From IMG/VR virus record IMGVR_UViG_3300044724_001447: a stretch of DNA of 20,000 nt, one strand, 5' to 3'. Within the stretch, counting starts at the first letter, position 1; the number at the start of each line of letters is the position of its first letter. Shown here one piece after another: positions 695 through 17,827 of this stretch. The DNA comes from an uncultured virus (IMG/VR IMGVR_UViG_3300044724_001447). Lineage: Duplodnaviria > Heunggongvirae > Uroviricota > Caudoviricetes. The notes below the pieces were generated by a model. The model worked only from the letters and a program-made list of their open reading frames with translations. It was not told the DNA's origin and searched no databases. The position numbers and the translations under genes are program-made.

Positions 695-808
695 ATGCCA
701 TATGGTAAAGGTACTTACGGGAGTAAAAGAGGTAGACCATCAAAAAAAGCAAAAGCTGCAGGTAGAAAAAAAGGAATGAAACGTGTTAGTAAAAAAAAGA
801 AAAAGTAA
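695..808 (+). CDS. 37-aa highly basic protein with AT-hook-like RGRP core
   Basis: Manual translation MPYGKGTYGSKRGRPSKKAKAAGRKKGMKRVSKKKKK*; 17 K/R, no acidic residues. GGAG lies upstream and the ATG is 1 nt after the previous stop. Confidence 0.75.
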   Translation: MPYGKGTYGSKRGRPSKKAKAAGRKKGMKRVSKKKKK

Positions 809-962
809 AAAGAAAGGTTTATACGCTAATATACACGCTAAACGTAAACGCATTAAAGCAGGTTCAGGTGAACGTATGAGAAAACCTGGAAGCAAAGGCG
901 CTCCTACTGCAACAAATTTTAAAAGAGCCGCTAAAACTGCTAAAAAACGTAAAAAGAAATGA
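783..962 (+). CDS. 59-aa highly basic phage protein (GLYANIHAKRKR type)
   Basis: GTG start with AGGA at 772-775; MLVKKRKSKKKGLYANIHAKRKRIKAGSGERMRKPGSKGAPTATNFKRAAKTAKKRKKK*; 25 K/R. Resembles small hypothetical proteins I recall from marine phages. Stop overlaps the next ATG (ATGA). Confidence 0.75.
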   Translation: MLVKKRKSKKKGLYANIHAKRKRIKAGSGERMRKPGSKGAPTATNFKRAAKTAKKRKKK

Positions 963-1368: not shown

Positions 1369-1596
1369 ATGCCGATACAAAGAAAAGGGGTAAGTAAAGG
1401 TGATATGGTTCGTGCTATAAAAGGTATTGAACTACATCTTATGCAACTTCAACAACACATTGTAATGATAGATAATATCTTAGATAAATATATCGTTATG
1501 AAAAAAGACAAAGACAAATTCGTAGAGTTTATGGAAAATGAACATAAACAAGAACAACGTAAGCAAAGCAGAAAAAGCACTAAAACTAGCAAGTAA
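1369..1596 (+). CDS. Hypothetical helical protein upstream of TerL
   Basis: AGGAG Shine-Dalgarno immediately upstream; 75 aa; overlaps the TerL 5' end by 59 nt. Confidence 0.65.
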   Translation: MPIQRKGVSKGDMVRAIKGIELHLMQLQQHIVMIDNILDKYIVMKKDKDKFVEFMENEHKQEQRKQSRKSTKTSK

Positions 1597-3109
1597 AGAC
1601 TTAATAGCTTTTGGTAAACTTTTTCTTCCTGATGATTTCATGAGGAGTGAAACACCTCCATTTCATTACGAAATGGCTGATGCTATTGATGATAATAATG
1701 TAAAACAATTAGCTGTTATTTTACCTAGAGGACACGGAAAAACTGTGTTAACTAAATGTTCTATTATTAAAGATTTTTGTTTTTGTCCAAAAGATGATAT
1801 GTTGTTTTATGCTTGGGTATCAGCAACGCAAAAATTAAGTACTGGTAATATGGATTATATCAAGTACCACTTTGAATACAATGAAAAAATAAAATACTAC
1901 TTTGGTAGTTTGAAGGGAAAAAAATGGACAGAAGAAGATGTGGAGTTATCCAATGGATGTAAACTTATTAGTAAATCGAATGTTGCGGGTATTAGAGGGG
2001 GTGCTAAATTACACAAAAGATACGACCTCATCATTCTTGACGACTTTGAACACGAAGCAAATACTATCACAGCTGAAGCACGGGCTAAAAATAGCAATCT
2101 CGTTACTGCTGTTGTTTATCCTGCTATTGAGCCTCATACTGGTCGTCTTCGGGTCAATGGTACTCCTGTGCACTATGATAGCTTTATCAATAACCTCATC
2201 ATTAATTATGAGCGTAGTAAAAAAAGCAAAGATGATTTTGCATGGAGAGTAATTACTTACAAAGCAATACAACCAGATGGTACATCGCTTTGGGATAGTT
2301 GGTTCCCTGTATCTAAGTTAGAAGAAAAGAAAAAGTTTTATCAAGATAGTGGAACGCCTAGCAAGTTCTATCAAGAATATATGATGGAAGTACAATCTGA
2401 AGAAGATTCAGTTTGGGGTAGAAAACACGTAAAGTACTGGGAAGGTTATTATGATTACGATGAAGGTGAAAGTCAAGGATATATCAACATTGATGGATTA
2501 AGAACTCCTGTAAATACGTTTATTGGATGCGACCCAGCAACAGACATTAATACAAAAAATGCAGACTTTAGTGTAATCATGGTAGTTGCAGTTGATGCGA
2601 ATAATAATCGTTATGTACTAGAATATGAACGCCATCGTAGTATTCCTACATTAGGAGCAAAAGATGTTGATGGAAAGATTATAGACAAAAAAGGTGTAGT
2701 AGATTATATTATAGAGTTGTATAAAAAATATAATTGCAAACAAGCTACAGTAGAAGATGTAGCTATGAATCGTAGTATTCTGCAAGCATTGAACGATGAA
2801 AGAAGAAGAATTAATCGTTATGATATAGCTGTTATACCTGAAAAACCAGGTGGACAACAAAAAAGAAACAGAATATATTCAGGTTTATCTGGTATTTTTT
2901 CTGTAGGTTCTTTATATTTAAGGGAAAATATGTTTGATTTGGTTAACGAAATTGTAACTTTCGGACCAAGAATGGCGCATGATGACACAATTGAAGCACT
3001 TTATTATGCAAATTTACACGCATTTCCGCCTAATTATTCAAACAATGGTACAGAAAAACCAAAATGGTACAAACCAAAACGTAAAGCAAAAAGCTGGATA
3101 GTAGCTTAG
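1538..3109 (+). CDS. terL: Terminase large subunit
   Basis: Walker A LPRGHGKT, Walker B LIILDDFE, coupling motif NGTP, and an RNase H-like nuclease with GCDPA and HDDTIEAL; located upstream of portal and capsid genes. Confidence 0.93.
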   Translation: MNINKNNVSKAEKALKLASKDLIAFGKLFLPDDFMRSETPPFHYEMADAIDDNNVKQLAVILPRGHGKTVLTKCSIIKDFCFCPKDDMLFYAWVSATQKLSTGNMDYIKYHFEYNEKIKYYFGSLKGKKWTEEDVELSNGCKLISKSNVAGIRGGAKLHKRYDLIILDDFEHEANTITAEARAKNSNLVTAVVYPAIEPHTGRLRVNGTPVHYDSFINNLIINYERSKKSKDDFAWRVITYKAIQPDGTSLWDSWFPVSKLEEKKKFYQDSGTPSKFYQEYMMEVQSEEDSVWGRKHVKYWEGYYDYDEGESQGYINIDGLRTPVNTFIGCDPATDINTKNADFSVIMVVAVDANNNRYVLEYERHRSIPTLGAKDVDGKIIDKKGVVDYIIELYKKYNCKQATVEDVAMNRSILQALNDERRRINRYDIAVIPEKPGGQQKRNRIYSGLSGIFSVGSLYLRENMFDLVNEIVTFGPRMAHDDTIEALYYANLHAFPPNYSNNGTEKPKWYKPKRKAKSWIVA

Positions 3110-3910: not shown

Positions 3911-6133
3911 ATGGCACGTAAAAGCAAAGCAGAAACAAATAAAGAGTTATTTAATAAAGCTAATAATTATTATAGAAAAAAATGGTTTAGCGATTCTCAG
4001 AAAGGAATGGACTTTTATTTAAATGACCAATTATCAGCTGAGGAAAAAGAAGATTTAAGAGAAGGTGGTATGCCAGACTTTATTATTAATCGTATTACAC
4101 CAGCGATTGATATTATGAAATTTTTTATTACGGCTAACAATCCTAGATGGCAAGCAGTTGGTGTAGAGGGTAGTGATGCTGATATAGCACATATCCATAG
4201 TATGATTGCTGAACATTCATGGCATTTGTCCAGTGGTAAAAGTTTATTTTCTGAAGTAATTCAAGACTCACTTGTTAAAGGTGTAGGGTTTTTTAAAGTA
4301 GAAATAGACCCAGATGCTGATAATGGTATGGGTGAAGTAGTTTATAAATCTATAGACCCTTATGATGTTTATGTAGACCCTATGAGTAGAGACTTTCTTT
4401 TTAGAGATGCAAACTATATTATAGTACAAAAAAATATTTCTAAGACATCTTTAATACAAATGTTTCCTGACATGAAGCGTAAAATTATTCGTGCATCAGG
4501 TATAACACAAACAAAACAATATTCTAATAGAGATATACACGAATCAGATAGTATTCAACCAGGCGATTTAGAACACGAAGCTTATACATTAGAAGGAGAA
4601 AGAGATGATATTCTTGACTTTTATGAAGTATATACAAAAGAAAAAATACCTCATGTTAATGTTTGGTTAAGAAAACCTCCTACAGAAAGAGAACTTCAAA
4701 AGATTAAAGAAGCTACACAAAAAGATATTTTAAATATGCAAGAAGAGATGGAAGTTGTTCTAAAAGAAAAAGAACAAGAATTCCAAATGTTAGTACAAAA
4801 AGGAGAAATGTTAGAAGAGAGAGCTGAAATAGAATCTCAAAAACTATTTGAACAAATGCAATCTAGAATTGAAGAACAACAAGCATTAATGGAAGCAGAA
4901 TTAATTAGGTCTCAAACAAGAACCAAACAAATTGTTATGTCAAAAGTACAATTTGAAAACTTAGTAAAAGACCCATCTTTTAGAGAGCAAGTAGTAGAAA
5001 GCGTACCATTCTTCAAAACACAAATTAAAGTAACTGCTTCTGCGGGTGATATGTTTTTATATGAACAAGTATTACCTATAGAAGACTATCCTATTGTTCC
5101 AATACCTTATCAACATACAAATACACCTTATGCTGTAAGTGCTGTTATACCAATGATAGGTAAACAAAGAGAGATAAATAAATCACATCAAATTATGCTA
5201 CACAATGCAAACTTGGCATCAAATCTTAGATGGTTATATACCGAAGGAAGTGTTGATGAAGAAGAGTGGGAAAAATATTCAAGTAGTCCTGGAGCTATGT
5301 TAAAATATAGACAAGGATTTCAACCACCTAATCCAATACAACCATTGCCTATTAATAATGCATTCTACACAGTAACCCAACAAGGTAAACAAGATATAGA
5401 ATATATTAGCGGTATATCATCAAGTATGCAAGGTATTGGTAGACCAAGTTCTGAAACATATCGTGGTTTATTAGCAATGGATGAATATGGTACAAGAAGA
5501 ATTAGACAATTTGTTAACAATGTAGTAGAACCATCACTTGAACACTTAGGTAAAGTATTTATGCAATTTGCACAATTTACTTACACTACACAAAAAGTGT
5601 TTAGAATTGTACAGCCAGAACAAGGGCAAACACAAGGTGAAGTACAAGAAGTTTCTATCAATATACCTATCTATAATGATTTTGGTAAGGTAGTAGAAAG
5701 ATTTAATGATTATGCTTCAGCTAAATTTGATGTTAGAATTATTGCTGGTTCAACACAACCACTTAATAGATGGGCATTGTTAGAAGAATACTTTAAATGG
5801 TATCAAGCTGGATTGATTGACGATGTAGCTATGCTAGAGCAAACTGATATACGTAATAAAAAACAATTACTACAACGTAAAAGTATGTATGCACAAATGA
5901 AACAACAACTAGCAAATGCAGAAAATGCTATGAAAAGTCAACGAGGTACAATTGAAACATTAGAAAGACAATTAGTACAAGCTGGTATTAAAGATAAATT
6001 AAATGAAAGTTCTAAAGTAATGGATAAAGAGCTTAATAGAAGTGTTGCAGCTCAACGACTAATTAGAAGTCGTATGCAAGACAAAGAAAAAATTCAACAA
6101 GAAAATGTTGATAATGATAAAAACGTACAGTAA
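3911..6133 (+). CDS. Portal protein (P22-like, long)
   Basis: 740 aa between TerL and scaffold; N-terminal DFY..DQ...P...INRI.P.I pattern, QREINK and EYISGIS segments, and a C-terminal coiled coil typical of P22-like portals. Confidence 0.85.
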   Translation: MARKSKAETNKELFNKANNYYRKKWFSDSQKGMDFYLNDQLSAEEKEDLREGGMPDFIINRITPAIDIMKFFITANNPRWQAVGVEGSDADIAHIHSMIAEHSWHLSSGKSLFSEVIQDSLVKGVGFFKVEIDPDADNGMGEVVYKSIDPYDVYVDPMSRDFLFRDANYIIVQKNISKTSLIQMFPDMKRKIIRASGITQTKQYSNRDIHESDSIQPGDLEHEAYTLEGERDDILDFYEVYTKEKIPHVNVWLRKPPTERELQKIKEATQKDILNMQEEMEVVLKEKEQEFQMLVQKGEMLEERAEIESQKLFEQMQSRIEEQQALMEAELIRSQTRTKQIVMSKVQFENLVKDPSFREQVVESVPFFKTQIKVTASAGDMFLYEQVLPIEDYPIVPIPYQHTNTPYAVSAVIPMIGKQREINKSHQIMLHNANLASNLRWLYTEGSVDEEEWEKYSSSPGAMLKYRQGFQPPNPIQPLPINNAFYTVTQQGKQDIEYISGISSSMQGIGRPSSETYRGLLAMDEYGTRRIRQFVNNVVEPSLEHLGKVFMQFAQFTYTTQKVFRIVQPEQGQTQGEVQEVSINIPIYNDFGKVVERFNDYASAKFDVRIIAGSTQPLNRWALLEEYFKWYQAGLIDDVAMLEQTDIRNKKQLLQRKSMYAQMKQQLANAENAMKSQRGTIETLERQLVQAGIKDKLNESSKVMDKELNRSVAAQRLIRSRMQDKEKIQQENVDNDKNVQ

Positions 6134-6136
6134 ATT
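6108..6136 (+). promoter_or_regulatory. Candidate sigma70-like promoter for scaffold and MCP
   Basis: TTGATA (6108-6113), 17 nt spacer, TAAATT (6131-6136). The AT-rich background makes chance matches likely, and the predicted start site would fall close to the SD. Confidence 0.3.
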
Positions 6137-6153
6137 AGAAGGAGAAATACAGT

Positions 6154-7017
6154 ATGGATAATAACAAGGATAACTTACTAGTAGATGATGCACAACGTGC
6201 AGAACTTCCAGTAACTCCCACTGAGAACGATACTGTGGCTGAAGATTTTTTTTCTCAGCTTGATAGACAAGTTATGGGTGAAGTGGTAGAACAGCCAAAT
6301 GTAGAAGCTCAAGTAGAACAGACAACTCCAATTCAGGACCCTGTTGCAGAGCAAAATACTGAATTTGATTCAGTAAATTGGGAAAAGCGATATAGTGATT
6401 CGTCAAGAGAAGCAAAACGACTTAACAATCAATTGCAAGACATAGAACCATATATGCCTTTACTCAATGCAATGAAAGAGGACCCAAATTTAATTTCTCA
6501 TGTGAGAGGTTATTTTGAGGGTGGTGGCTCAGCTCCTAAGAGCGTAAAAGAGCAACTTGGCTTAGATGAAGATTTCATTTTTGATTATGATGATGCTTTG
6601 TCAAACCCTGACTCTCAATCTGCAAAGTTGTTTAATGCAACAGTAGATGGAGTTGTACAAAGAAGGCTTGGTGATTTTGCAAAACAACAATCTGAACAAT
6701 CACGTAGAGCTTCTGAAGAAACTAGTTTTAAATCAAAACATAATGTTTCAGATGAAGACTATCAAGATTTGATGAAGTATGCAAAGTCCCACAAGTTAAC
6801 ATTAGAAGATGTGTATTATTTAAAAAATAGAGATAATAGAGACAATGAAGTCGCTAATAACACTAGAAATGAAGTAATACAACAAATGAAAAATGTTAGA
6901 CAAATGCCTACTAGTGTAGCGTCAAGCGGGAATACACAAAGAGAAGAAAAATCAGTAGATGATGCTGTCTTTGATAAGTTGTTAGCCGAAGGAACTGAGT
7001 TAAACAAATTGATGTAA
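6154..7017 (+). CDS. Capsid scaffolding protein
   Basis: Acidic low-complexity N-terminus, helical WEKRYSDSSREAKRL segment, position between portal and MCP, strong SD AGAAGGAG. Confidence 0.75.
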   Translation: MDNNKDNLLVDDAQRAELPVTPTENDTVAEDFFSQLDRQVMGEVVEQPNVEAQVEQTTPIQDPVAEQNTEFDSVNWEKRYSDSSREAKRLNNQLQDIEPYMPLLNAMKEDPNLISHVRGYFEGGGSAPKSVKEQLGLDEDFIFDYDDALSNPDSQSAKLFNATVDGVVQRRLGDFAKQQSEQSRRASEETSFKSKHNVSDEDYQDLMKYAKSHKLTLEDVYYLKNRDNRDNEVANNTRNEVIQQMKNVRQMPTSVASSGNTQREEKSVDDAVFDKLLAEGTELNKLM

Positions 7018-7030
7018 TAATAACTCAACA

Positions 7031-7050
7031 ACCCCGAGGAGGGTAATAAC
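7031..7050 (+). promoter_or_regulatory. MCP ribosome-binding leader (strong SD within a short ACCC/GGGT stem)
   Basis: ACCCCGAGGAGGGTAATAAC precedes the ATG at 7051; GAGGAGG SD; ACCC 7031-7034 can pair with GGGT 7041-7044. Confidence 0.6.
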
Positions 7051-8589
7051 ATGGCAGATACAAGTTATCCAGCGTCAAGTCCATTGGCGTTGTCAACAAG
7101 TACAGGCTTAAGCCAGGGTTATGCGGCATCACAAGGTTCTTCACTAGCGACAGGAGATTTACGTAGAAGATACGACTTTTCTGAAAGATTCGGAGAGTTG
7201 GCAATTGACCAAACTCCATTTTTCAGACTAGTTTCTTCATTGGCTAAGAAACCAACTGATGACCCCCAGTTTAAGTTTACCGAAAAGAGACATTCTTTTC
7301 ACAAAAGATACGCATACGTAGTAGGATTTAATAATGGAACATCTGATGTTTTTACTGATGCAACATTAGTAGATACTAGTGCAGGTGCAATAGCAGCAGG
7401 TGGTACAGTAAAGCTATTTATGGCTACTGATTACTTTAGTGCTGGTAATATTCAAAATATACAAGGTCAATCTAACGGAGCAATCAAAGTTGGAGACTCA
7501 GGTACAGCACCAGAATGGATTATGGCTAATCAAATTCTTAAAGTTCCTGTAAGTTCTACAACAGGTGGCGCAGTTAATGACTACATATTAGTTCGTGTAA
7601 CAGCAGTTGGAGCACAAGAAGCAGCAGACCTATCAGGTGGCGGTGGTTCAGGAACAGCTGAGGTTAAAGAAGTAACAGGTAAAATCTTAAGAAGTTCTTC
7701 AAGTGTAGAACTTTCTACATTTGCTAGTGATGCAGGTGCAGATTGTGTTGTTTACAATGAAGACATTGCTGAAACTTTAGAACAAAAAAGAACTTATGTT
7801 GTAGGTAATTCTTATGGCGAAGGTTCTTCTTTATCTGGAGAAAGCTTCAAAGATAACCCATATTCAACTGGATTTGGACAAACACAGATTTTTAGAACTG
7901 AGTTTGGTATGACAAATACAGCTAGAGCAACAGCTCTTAAATATGAACCAAATGAATGGGCTAGAACCTGGAGAGAAAAACTAATTGAACACAAGTGGGA
8001 AATTGAACACGCTGGTTTATTTAGTGCTCAAGCTTCAGTAGATGGTGTAGCTCATACACAAGGTGCTATTGATTATGTTCTTAACTATGGTAATATATTT
8101 GACTTAACACTAGCAACGAAAACAATTGATGATTTCTTGCAAGATATGTCACAATATCAAGACCCAAGATACAATCAAGATGCAGCTACAGTCTACATGT
8201 GTAGTACTGCAGTTTACACTTGGTTCCACAAAATTGGTGGGTTCTTTAAGAACAATATTGGAATTGATTCACAGTTCCAAGCAGACCTAGCCGTTACAGG
8301 TAGAAAGAAAGTAATGGGACTAGATGTAACTGAAATCTCTACTGTTTATGGTAACATGAACATCGCAAGATGTGTTGCTTTAGATAGTACTGATGTCAAG
8401 ATTCTAGCGTTAAATATGAACAACGTAGCTTACAGACCACTAGTTGGTAATGGAGTTAATAGAGATACTGCGGTATACGTAGGAGTTCAAAATCTTGAAA
8501 ACACAGGTGTTGACAAGAGAGTAGACATCATATTAACAGAAGCTGGTTTTGAATTTATGATGCCAGAATCACACGCTATTTGGAAATAA
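7051..8589 (+). CDS. Major capsid protein (HK97 fold, SU10/DUF5309-like)
   Basis: 512 aa after the scaffold; TPFF..., F.F.E, GN...EG, TQIFRT, EH...F, G.......I.T.YG.M and RPL....D...ILTE.G pattern; very strong SD. Confidence 0.85.
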   Translation: MADTSYPASSPLALSTSTGLSQGYAASQGSSLATGDLRRRYDFSERFGELAIDQTPFFRLVSSLAKKPTDDPQFKFTEKRHSFHKRYAYVVGFNNGTSDVFTDATLVDTSAGAIAAGGTVKLFMATDYFSAGNIQNIQGQSNGAIKVGDSGTAPEWIMANQILKVPVSSTTGGAVNDYILVRVTAVGAQEAADLSGGGGSGTAEVKEVTGKILRSSSSVELSTFASDAGADCVVYNEDIAETLEQKRTYVVGNSYGEGSSLSGESFKDNPYSTGFGQTQIFRTEFGMTNTARATALKYEPNEWARTWREKLIEHKWEIEHAGLFSAQASVDGVAHTQGAIDYVLNYGNIFDLTLATKTIDDFLQDMSQYQDPRYNQDAATVYMCSTAVYTWFHKIGGFFKNNIGIDSQFQADLAVTGRKKVMGLDVTEISTVYGNMNIARCVALDSTDVKILALNMNNVAYRPLVGNGVNRDTAVYVGVQNLENTGVDKRVDIILTEAGFEFMMPESHAIWK

Positions 8590-8599
8590 TAGCTAAATT

Positions 8600-8654
8600 G
8601 TAGATGGTCCCTTGAGGTTCTTTACCTCCTTTCTCCCTCGGGGGACTCATCTGC
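8600..8654 (+). ncRNA. Structured RNA hairpin with anti-Shine-Dalgarno loop in the MCP 3' UTR
   Basis: 18-bp stem (8600-8617 with 8636-8654, one bulged U, three G-U pairs) closing the loop UUCUUUACCUCCUUUCUC; no U-tract follows. Confidence 0.6.
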
Positions 8655-8668
8655 GTTAGGATGCAACT

Positions 8669-9535
8669 ATGAAATTGTGGGAAAAAGTTAACAATATTAC
8701 TGGGAATAGCTCGAAAGCTAGATTTTTAATTGAGTATATCAATGCTGGTTCTAAGTTTATTATGTCATCATTGCCTGAAAAATGGTTATGGACTATAGCT
8801 ACTGAAACTGAAATAAGTGGATGGAATAGTTCTGGAACAAGTTTAATAGGTTCTGGTTCTGATGTAGCGTATGATAAAATACTAGGAGTCTATAGATATG
8901 AAGGTAGCAAACGTAGAATAGCTAAAGAAATATCAGATAAGTTTATACACTCAACTGATGAAGCTGGTAGTCTTTCATTGCCAACAAAAATGTTTCCAGT
9001 TTTTTATAAGTTAAATGGCAAGATATTTATTAAGCCAGACCCAGATTATAATGCATCTTCCTCACAACAATCTTACACACCAGTAGGGGGTAGCTCTACA
9101 AATGTAGCAGCTTCAGGCGGAGACAAAGGAGTGGTAATTTATTCAGCCCCCCCAATCATTGATGAAAATACCGAAAATTGGGTATTATCAGAATATGAAA
9201 ATGTTGCATTACATTATGCAGCTTCATTAGATATGTTAAGATTAGCTAGTGTATCTGATGCTGAAAAAATATTAGAAGGTGGATATGCCAGTGTAGATGC
9301 TACAAGCAAAACAAGTTTAAGTGCTATACATTGGTTAGAAGATGAAGACCCTGAAATGGCTAATGCAGTTATTCAAGTGTCTCAGGGAGATTTAAGTTTA
9401 GCTAATCAAAGATTACAGACAGCAATGGCATTTTATCAAAGAGCAGTTGCTGAATTACGTTCTATAACTGGAGCATTTGCAGTTCCTGAAGAACAACAAC
9501 AATCACAACGTAAAGAACAAGGAATGACAACATAA
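8669..9535 (+). CDS. Head-tail adaptor / ring-like virion protein
   Basis: First gene after the MCP; N-terminal helices (EYINAG), PVFY....KIFIKPDP strand region, and C-terminal helices (YENVALHYAA) as in podovirus adaptor proteins. Confidence 0.55.
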   Translation: MKLWEKVNNITGNSSKARFLIEYINAGSKFIMSSLPEKWLWTIATETEISGWNSSGTSLIGSGSDVAYDKILGVYRYEGSKRRIAKEISDKFIHSTDEAGSLSLPTKMFPVFYKLNGKIFIKPDPDYNASSSQQSYTPVGGSSTNVAASGGDKGVVIYSAPPIIDENTENWVLSEYENVALHYAASLDMLRLASVSDAEKILEGGYASVDATSKTSLSAIHWLEDEDPEMANAVIQVSQGDLSLANQRLQTAMAFYQRAVAELRSITGAFAVPEEQQQSQRKEQGMTT

Positions 9536-9813
9536 TGAAAGTTTTAGAAGTAATGGAACGAGCGAATACACGTGATACTAACCTAGTAATTGCGTATATT
9601 AAAGATGCAATATTAGAGATACAATCTAACAATGAGTTAGATACTGCGGTAGATAAACAAAATATTGTTGAAGATACAAGAGATTATTCATTACCAGCAG
9701 GTATGATTGCATTAAAAAGTGTTAGTATATTAGATACTGAAGATGATAATAAATACAAAGCAATTAGAAGATTGCAACACGACCCATTAGTTACTGAGGA
9801 TACAAATCCATGA
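9535..9813 (+). CDS. Adaptor-like protein, N-terminal half
   Basis: AYIKDAILEI...DYSLPAGMIALKSV resembles the N-terminal part of podovirus adaptor proteins; TAATG coupling. Confidence 0.5.
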   Translation: MKVLEVMERANTRDTNLVIAYIKDAILEIQSNNELDTAVDKQNIVEDTRDYSLPAGMIALKSVSILDTEDDNKYKAIRRLQHDPLVTEDTNP

Positions 9814-17621: not shown

Positions 17622-17795
17622 ATGGCTAAAGAACAAAATACAGCAAAAGAAGTAGTTCAAGAACCTCTTGATTTGCAAGAACAATTAAAGGTAATTGAAG
17701 CTCAAATTGCTGAGTTACGTGGAACACATAACTATATAAATAGTCTTTTACAACAAGGCTTTACAGTTATTCCACCAGCTAAAGCTGAAAAGTAG
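17622..17795 (+). CDS. 57-aa hypothetical coiled-coil protein (not in ORF track)
   Basis: AAGGAG SD; MAKEQNTAKEVVQEPLDLQEQLKVIEAQIAELRGTHNYINSLLQQGFTVIPPAKAEK*. Confidence 0.8.
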   Translation: MAKEQNTAKEVVQEPLDLQEQLKVIEAQIAELRGTHNYINSLLQQGFTVIPPAKAEK

Positions 17796-17827
17796 AAAGG
17801 GAGGGGGAGAAATCCCCCTAACTTTAA
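17796..17827 (+). terminator. GC-rich hairpin with GAAA tetraloop, terminator-like
   Basis: AGGGGGA-GAAA-TCCCCCT (17802-17819), extendable by AAAG/CTTT; only a weak U-tract follows. Confidence 0.55.

What the first reader, a model, noticed from the sequence alone, without database searches (positions are those of the whole stretch)
7031..8643. The post-MCP hairpin is doubly complementary to the MCP's own ribosome-binding leader
Seen: the 3' arm CCTCGGGG (8636-8643) is the exact reverse complement of CCCCGAGG (7032-7039). Separately, the loop TTACCTCCT (8622-8630) pairs with AGGAGGGTAA (7037-7046) with one bulged G. A GC-rich 8-mer match between the two short UTRs flanking one gene is notable in AT-rich DNA. 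The two pairings overlap on the leader and compete with local stems. Inference: a long-range 5'-3' switch (loop toehold, then strand exchange) that autoregulates capsid translation or couples it to downstream adaptor genes.
Basis: partly seen in the sequence, partly recalled or inferred. Interest (0 to 1): 0.7.

Follow-up and report, generated by a model that had tools for sequence, protein, structure and literature searches.

The report
Capsid-mRNA hairpin matching scaffold ribosome site
Behind the capsid gene of an uncultured phage lies a conserved RNA hairpin whose open loop probably pairs not with the capsid gene's own ribosome-binding site, as first proposed, but with that of the scaffold gene in front of it, which could set how much scaffold is made per capsid protein; this is inferred from sequence comparison only.

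Summary
Both matches exist at the stated coordinates, but the capsid (MCP) switch is not supported. The 8-mer arm match is unbroken in 1 of 24 related leader/arm pairs and arises in 5-9% of shuffles. Across 68 phage lineages the loop fits its own MCP leader no better than a foreign one (p=0.99). The hairpin itself (8600-8654) is real: the stem covaries, the 18-nt anti-Shine-Dalgarno loop is nearly invariant, and a hairpin closes the head-gene block throughout the group. The partner that tracks the loop is the ribosome-binding site of the scaffold-like gene upstream of MCP (6138-6144 with 8626-8632). Own-genome fit is p<5e-5 in 61 lineages; MCP, auxiliary, downstream and CDS controls show none, portal at most a weak one. 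Scaffold ranks first of 24 window genes once accessibility is counted. Against this: 14 held-out lineages lean the same way without significance (p=0.06-0.47), the nearest-pair test is weak (13 vs 9), and the window's own clade cannot discriminate. Best reading (about 55%): an icaR-like 3'-to-5' brake on scaffold translation. No Rfam family matches. The scan noted similar anti-SD-loop hairpins on other phage DNA.

The parts
3911..6133 (+). portal gene; its stop codon lies 20 nt before the scaffold start
   Evidence: phrog_156, E 1e-53; ORF
6137..6147 (+). Shine-Dalgarno region of the scaffold-like gene, the proposed target: 6138-6144 pairs with 8626-8632 (7 bp, one G-U); second register 6141-6147 with 8630-8636
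   Evidence: duplexes -9.7 and -9.2 kcal/mol; opening cost 0.3; rank 1 of 24 window leaders; cognate fit across lineages
6154..7017 (+). scaffold-like gene (287 aa); name inferred from position between portal and MCP
   Evidence: no PHROG hit and no Pfam hit above cut-off; nearest named Atlas cluster 'Scaffolding protein family', score 0.91, PF09306 on 13% of members, a lead only
6996..7027 (+). local stem enclosing the scaffold stop codon
   Evidence: MFE and centroid fold; GAGTTA/TAACTC versus GGGTTA/TAACCT variants seen in relatives, not counted formally
   Evidence: 32 of 34 distinct leaders can form 3 or more such pairs, with changed stems TAAACC/GGTTTA, CTAAAC/GTTTAG, ATACC/GGTAT; opening cost 5.5
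7051..8589 (+). major capsid protein gene (512 aa)
   Evidence: PF17236 SU10_MCP E 4e-17; phrog_1328
8600..8654 (+). conserved RNA hairpin, 7 + 11 bp, no U tract behind it
   Evidence: upper helix 99.4% paired, 6 of 11 pairs with changes on both sides in 32 sequences, frequent U-G pairs on the + strand; not among terminator-like sites
8618..8635 (+). 18-nt open pyrimidine loop with anti-SD seed CUCCUUU (8626-8632); 8624-8634 equals 11 nt of a common 16S rRNA 3' tail
   Evidence: 4 loop variants among 45 MCP-selected loci; opening cost 0.02 kcal/mol; 16S tails in PMC6288834
8669..9535 (+). next gene (288 aa), first of the presumed neck block; the gene after it (9535-9813) has a weak SU10 adaptor hit
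   Evidence: PF24175 E 1e-4, below cut-off

Best explanation
The hairpin is the 3' element of the scaffold-capsid(-auxiliary head gene) message. Shown: a covarying stem holds a pyrimidine loop open; a hairpin closes the head block in the whole phage group; across lineages the loop sequence tracks the ribosome-binding site of the scaffold-like gene and not that of MCP. Inferred: once the hairpin, 2.5 kb downstream, has been transcribed, its loop pairs (6-11 bp) with the exposed scaffold SD of the same message and competes with 16S rRNA. Scaffold translation is then damped, while MCP, whose SD is folded into a small local hairpin and fits the loop worse, goes on being made. That would act as a timer that lowers the scaffold-to-capsid ratio. 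The stem probably also guards a processed or partly terminated 3' end (inferred from position only).
For: Own versus foreign scaffold leader: -6.02 vs -5.07 kcal/mol, 0 of 20000 permutations, 61 clusters; longest perfect helix 6.28 vs 5.51 bp, 23 of 53 at 7 bp or more against 10.9 expected. The helix signal holds in within-clade permutations (p 0, 0.016, 0.007 at 62, 66, 70% MCP identity). Controls by the same energy test: MCP 0.96, first and second auxiliary genes 0.99 and 0.86, next two downstream genes 0.88 and 0.56, scaffold CDS 0.89, portal 0.45. Scaffold helix longer than MCP helix in 36, shorter in 2, tied in 15 of 53. Different loops meet different leaders: L283 11 bp, L063 10 bp, L053 9 bp, L219, L164 and L297 8 bp, L278 and L276 7 bp. 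In the window's clade 20 of 22 scaffold leaders but 2 of 29 MCP leaders carry RAAGGAG or AAAAGGA; background for RAAGGAG is 10 of 221 other same-strand genes and only the scaffold among 24 window genes. The loop variants of L016 and L019 are met by matching spacer changes in their scaffold leaders while their MCP SD and spacer are the same. Scaffold SDs are more open than MCP SDs (1.59 vs 3.3 kcal/mol, n=61, p 3e-7). Old and new clusters together, n=67: p<5e-5.
Against: The scaffold target was found on the same data that test it (one of 8 leader classes tried). 14 held-out clusters are not significant: energy p=0.47, helix p=0.18; double-centred p=0.15, or 0.055 with a post-hoc SD-restricted helix; L792 has the loop of L806 without its leader change. 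Disjoint nearest pairs: 13 better, 9 worse, p=0.26. Within-clade energy p rises to 0.08 and 0.27. The 18 anti-SD-loop clusters, which include the window, do not discriminate (p=0.54 energy; 0.12 helix). Portal helix p=0.013. Genome-wide the scaffold ranks only 5, 35, 23, 14 and 21 of 60-91 genes, and below MCP in G004. Loop variants L242 and L243 have no matching spacer change. Helices are short, no transcript end or pairing has been observed, gene starts and hairpins were picked by script, and the scaffold name is positional.
Confidence: 0.55

Rival explanations
1. Generic anti-SD seed: the hairpin, on the message end or cut out as a small RNA, masks many strong SDs in trans (early phage genes or host genes); the scaffold is only one of its targets.
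For: The loop holds 11 nt of a common 16S tail, 13 nt in L230-type loops. Several other leaders, many on the opposite strand, bind it better than scaffold or MCP in complete relatives. The same core sits on contiguous stems of 10 bp or more in 8 of 60 unrelated viral contexts against 1 of 83 for a shuffled core (p=0.004), and on hairpins behind SSB, Hsp20 and primase/helicase genes. CU-rich loop sRNAs are predicted to cover many ribosome-binding sites (PMC5688073, passages).
Against: Only 23 of 67 clusters have the 16S-like loop; the others have loops that track the scaffold leader (35 clusters, p<5e-5) and are not 16S-like. No U tract and no promoter-like site directly in front among the 60 of 81 sites listed. 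No Rfam match.
Confidence: 0.2
2. Structural end marker only: a terminator-like, pause, RNase or 3'-protecting stem that sets head genes apart from low-copy neck genes; the pyrimidine loop binds a protein or is neutral.
For: The hairpin follows the last head gene even when one or two auxiliary genes are inserted after MCP. In 8 of 67 clusters the site holds a short UUCG- or CUCGAUA-type hairpin with no SD complement. The place corresponds to the T7 terminator after the capsid gene (recalled).
Against: Does not explain the loop's invariance against a variable stem nor its covariation with the scaffold leader alone. No U tract. One RNA-library contig runs through the hairpin to 8898.
Confidence: 0.15
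3. One reading: loop toehold on the MCP SD followed by strand exchange of the 3' arm with the MCP leader, autoregulating capsid translation.
For: Both matches exist. The MCP leader gives the best raw loop duplex of 24 window leaders (-12.4) and the best arm duplex (-19.1). 5-7 of 8 positions stay Watson-Crick in most close relatives, permutation p=0.054 with the window.
Against: Unbroken in 1 of 24 pairs; the same leader 8-mer recurs in L094 and L145 with 2-3 mismatches to their arms; p=0.14 without the window. Own MCP leaders fit worse than foreign ones (p=0.96-0.9995). The leader's C run is explained by its local hairpin.
Confidence: 0.05
4. Decoy of the 16S rRNA 3' tail: an abundant mimic that titrates a host protein or nuclease acting on the anti-SD.
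For: 11-13 nt identity with the tail; MazF cuts off the 16S 3' end with the anti-SD (PMC7781912, one passage).
Against: The GAUC part of the tail is absent; 44 of 67 clusters use other loops at the same site; pairing with RAAGGAG already explains the conserved letters.
Confidence: 0.05

Closest known systems
icaR mRNA of Staphylococcus aureus, 5'-3' UTR pairing (PMC3868564; abstract, outline and section 14 read)
   Same: A 3'-UTR anti-SD motif pairs with an SD on the same message and blocks initiation; timing by late synthesis of the 3' element is discussed there.
   Different: Here the seed is shown in the loop of one covarying hairpin, the message is a polycistronic phage late message, and the predicted target is the cistron upstream of the gene the hairpin follows. 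icaR uses a ~40-nt complementary region and RNase III; neither is shown here.
CU-rich anti-SD small RNAs: Burkholderia double-hairpin 'toxic' sRNAs RF02278 and NmsR (PMC5688073, passages)
   Same: Unpaired CU-rich seed complementary to ribosome-binding sites.
   Different: Those are free RNAs with a terminator and many predicted targets; the window element has no U tract and no Rfam match. One unrelated locus with the core (L485) hits RF02278 below cut-off.
P22 scaffolding-protein autoregulation (Wyckoff and Casjens 1985; title seen only in the reference list of PMC2115188; paper not held; content recalled)
   Same: Post-transcriptional control of the scaffold level relative to coat protein.
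   Different: As recalled, P22 uses feedback by free scaffolding protein; here the proposed agent is an RNA-RNA pairing.
T7 terminator T-phi after the capsid gene (recalled, no call)
   Same: A long hairpin at the boundary between capsid and adaptor genes.
   Different: T-phi has a U tract and a short loop; this hairpin has none and an 18-nt conserved loop.

Membership tests
icaR-type 5'-3' UTR pairing | anti-SD motif in the 3' UTR, unpaired and conserved | tested here: met
icaR-type 5'-3' UTR pairing | pairs with the SD of the gene it directly follows (MCP) | tested here: not met
   no cognate fit, p=0.99; 8-mer unbroken in 1 of 24
icaR-type 5'-3' UTR pairing | pairs with an SD on the same message (scaffold) | tested here: inconclusive
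   p<5e-5 in 61 clusters; held-out 14 clusters p=0.06-0.47
icaR-type 5'-3' UTR pairing | element lies at the 3' end of a message that holds the target | tested here: inconclusive
   only contigs were served; one contig of an RNA library spans 6151-8898; a contig shows no single transcript and no ends
icaR-type 5'-3' UTR pairing | pairing blocks 30S binding and invites RNase III | not testable with these tools
   needs toeprinting and cleavage assays
CU-rich anti-SD sRNAs (RF02278, ar14, SorY, NmsR) | match to the Rfam model | tested here: not met
   no such family up to E 5-10
CU-rich anti-SD sRNAs (RF02278, ar14, SorY, NmsR) | own intrinsic terminator | tested here: not met
   no U tract, not among the 12 terminator-like sites
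CU-rich anti-SD sRNAs (RF02278, ar14, SorY, NmsR) | exists as a free small RNA | not testable with these tools
   no raw reads offered
intrinsic terminator | GC-rich stem followed by a U tract | tested here: not met
   stem yes, tail GTTAGGAT
16S rRNA 3'-tail mimic | identity with GAUCACCUCCUUUCU kept across the group | tested here: not met
   11 nt in the window, but anti-SD loops in 23 of 67 clusters only

The most novel reading that the evidence does not exclude
A large group of uncultured SU10-capsid-type phages sets its scaffold-to-capsid ratio with a built-in RNA timer: the hairpin that ends the head message reaches back over 2.5-3.5 kb, past the capsid gene, to shut the scaffold ribosome-binding site, while capsid and auxiliary-gene sites have evolved to avoid the loop. 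The same anti-SD-loop module is reused behind SSB, Hsp20 and helicase genes of unrelated phages, making it a general, uncatalogued class of phage 3'-UTR regulators.
Probability: 0.4. Interest if true: 0.8.

Novelty: new variant of a known kind. Interest (0 to 1): 0.62.

Why it matters
How tailed phages tune the amounts of head proteins made from one polycistronic message is known for few cases, and 5'-3' pairing within a bacterial message is known mainly from icaR and toxin mRNAs. A compact hairpin whose loop covaries with the SD of one upstream cistron gives a directly testable RNA-only mechanism for virion stoichiometry, with natural compensatory pairs ready for swap experiments, and a portable part for delayed shut-off of one gene in an operon.

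Tried and rejected
Own assembly: none held; the nearest record G001 is identical over 6900-8800. Host: no relative among annotated phages or in bacterial genome contigs (18 candidates, none confirmed), so host and its 16S tail are unknown. Rfam: nothing for the window or, above cut-off, for the motif in 19 other loci. Antisense gene using the loop as an SD: no start codon at SD spacing on the minus strand (sequence), and the minus strand folds worse (z -1.9). Pseudoknot of the loop with the next gene's SD: net +1.6 kcal/mol, linker too short to span the stem (inference), no cognate fit. Best raw loop complement in the window, 17789-17812 (-18.5): the 5' side of another hairpin, kept in G002 and G004 but changed in G003 and G005, not followed as a target. 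RNA runs (4 of 24 listed, contigs only): cover is densest over scaffold-MCP and one contig stops at 8646, but another goes on to 8898 and a third starts at 8592; uncovered parts are no evidence. Tree (quick search, L191 left out): the anti-SD label needs 5 changes; gains versus losses not tested. Literature: ten searches found no description of this element or of an RNA pairing that controls a phage scaffold gene; most subscription papers are not covered. In the viral structured-RNA catalogue PMC10690425 the loop strings were not found in the supplements searched, but files 1, 2 and 4 could not be searched, so the motif may be listed there.

Full report
Setting. The window is the head and tail module of a tailed phage: terminase 1538-3109, portal 3911-6133, a 287-aa gene 6154-7017, major capsid protein 7051-8589 (PF17236 SU10_MCP) and a presumed neck block from 8669. 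No annotated phage or bacterial genome holds a relative; hundreds of viral contigs do. The 287-aa gene is called scaffold-like from its position; the only sequence support is an Atlas lead.

Observation. Both complementarities are in the sequence as stated. The hairpin spans 8600-8654 with an 18-nt loop, -29.1 kcal/mol, z -4.75. In 32 aligned sequences its upper helix is paired in 99.4% of cells, 6 of 11 pairs change on both sides, and U-G pairs are common on the + strand, so it is selected as RNA on the coding strand (29 of these rows were chosen by or hold the loop pattern, so loop invariance is judged instead). Among 45 loci chosen by MCP similarity that carry the core there are 4 loop variants against 12 arm variants. 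An exact 21-nt loop pattern hit 70 viral stretches, 67 directly after an MCP stop; the other 3 are cut by contig ends. No Rfam family matches.

The MCP switch fails. An 8-nt match arises in 110 and 187 of 2000 shuffles. It is unbroken in 1 of 24 distinct leader/arm pairs from 115 loci; the two variable arm columns pair with their own stem in 22 of 23 and 23 of 23 variants but with the leader in 18 and 6 of 24, none beyond shuffles. Six positions do remain complementary in most relatives (cognate p=0.054 with the window, 0.14 without). They have local causes: CCU closes the stem, and the leader's C run pairs with the bases behind its own AGGA in 32 of 34 leaders, with compensated stems. Opening the arm costs 13.3 kcal/mol. 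Of 308 loci, 228 gave an MCP leader and a downstream hairpin, in 68 clusters at 80% identity; own MCP leaders fit worse than foreign ones (p=0.99; anti-SD loops alone p=0.94). In five complete relatives the MCP leader ranks 5 to 35 of 60-91 genes by raw energy.

What the element is. In relatives with one or two extra genes after MCP the hairpin follows the last of them, so it marks the end of the head block. Of 67 clusters, 23 have a CCUCCU loop, 6 a partial one, 30 another, mostly pyrimidine-rich, top and 8 a short terminator-like hairpin. The window's loop shares 11 nt with a common 16S tail (PMC6288834, passages), but most loops of the group do not, so tail mimicry is not the rule.

The partner. 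Earlier scan notes on loops that covary with an upstream leader (unchecked) and RNA-library contigs beginning near 6119-6151 led me to test the scaffold leader. It fits: -6.02 vs -5.07 kcal/mol in 61 clusters (6 lacked the leader, L191 dropped because its hairpin lay in a reading frame), 0 of 20000 permutations. MCP, two auxiliary, two downstream leaders and a CDS stretch give p=0.56-0.99, portal 0.45 by energy and 0.013 by helix length in 36 clusters where scaffold again gives p<5e-5. In 53 clusters without terminator-type loops the longest perfect helix is 6.28 vs 5.51 bp, and the signal holds within clades for helix length (p 0-0.016) but weakens for energy (0.0009, 0.08, 0.27). The scaffold helix exceeds the MCP helix in 36 clusters, is shorter in 2 and ties in 15. 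In the window's clade 20 of 22 scaffold leaders but 2 of 29 MCP leaders carry the 7-nt complement of the loop seed, against 10 of 221 other same-strand genes in five genomes. In the window 6138-6144 pairs with 8626-8632 (-9.7) at an opening cost of 0.3 against 5.5 for the MCP site, ranking scaffold 1 and MCP 9 of 24 (the cruder net estimate had them tied at -6.2).

Results against it. The target was found after the fact. Of 141 new loci, 73 were complete and 28 were new at 80%, giving 14 clusters: energy p=0.47, helix p=0.18, double-centred p=0.15, or 0.055 with a post-hoc SD-restricted helix. They include good matches (L795, L806, L818) and a counter-case (L792). Nearest-pair sign test 13 vs 9, p=0.26. 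The 18 anti-SD-loop clusters alone do not discriminate. Genome-wide the scaffold ranks 5 to 35, within the structural block 1, 12, 3, 3, 3, so specificity would have to come from being on the same message. Starts and hairpins were picked by script and some are probably wrong.

Mechanism. Shown: conserved stem, open loop, position, comparative link to the scaffold SD, exposed scaffold SD and folded MCP SD. Inferred: one message from scaffold to hairpin; pairing in cis after the hairpin is made; repression because the paired bases are the SD itself; a lower scaffold-to-capsid ratio as the outcome. I give this 0.55, a generic anti-SD RNA 0.2, a purely structural end marker 0.15, the MCP switch 0.05 and a 16S decoy 0.05; the first three are not exclusive.

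Comparison. It works like icaR (PMC3868564: abstract, outline and section 14 read) but fails the feature of pairing with the gene it follows. It resembles CU-rich seed sRNAs (PMC5688073: passages) without being a member by Rfam or terminator. P22 scaffold autoregulation (title seen in a reference list only) and T7 T-phi are recalled parallels. Ten literature searches found no description; PMC10690425 was seen in passages, and three of its supplement files could not be searched. PMC7781912 was seen in one passage. The scan's own notes list similar anti-SD-loop hairpins in other phages, one of them matched to a scaffold leader; none was checked here and none counts as support.

Verdict. New variant of a known kind, interest 0.62.

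Noticed in passing
window 17789-17819: Second GC-rich hairpin after the tail-fibre block, terminator-like on both strands, kept in G002-G005; its 5' flank is the best raw complement of the loop in the window.
   Followed up: partly
window 6996-7044: Two small stems at the scaffold-MCP junction, one around the scaffold stop codon and one with an NNAGGA loop over the MCP SD, both with changed-but-paired variants; may couple MCP translation to scaffold termination or bind a protein.
   Followed up: partly
L381, L388, L404, L419, L424, L440, L368/L496 (motif near 1504): A three-way-junction RNA family with the same anti-SD loop, between a replication-initiator-like gene on the opposite strand and small genes, one resembling window ORF 1096-1362; no Rfam hit for L381 or L496.
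   Followed up: partly
L327, L431, L332/L452, L377, L394, L494, L399: Anti-SD-loop hairpins 20-60 nt behind SSB, Hsp20, primase/helicase and unknown genes of unrelated phages; L399 has two copies in front of a portal gene.
   Followed up: partly
L055-L079, L150-L308, after the MCP stop: Many relatives carry one or two extra genes (starting MANPLYGQNK, MAKLGA, MAKYWVA) with strong SDs between MCP and the hairpin, probably capsid accessory proteins; the window has none.
   Followed up: no
contig of L187 and L743 (111 kb): One contig holds two MCP loci about 60 kb apart: a concatemer, a chimera or two phages.
   Followed up: no
L313 6489-15278: A 2929-aa ORF with no Pfam hit in a complete relative, possibly an ejected virion protein or polymerase.
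   Followed up: no
window 783-962 and 1096-1362: Two very basic, lysine/arginine-rich small ORFs of unknown-function PHROG families before the terminase.
   Followed up: no
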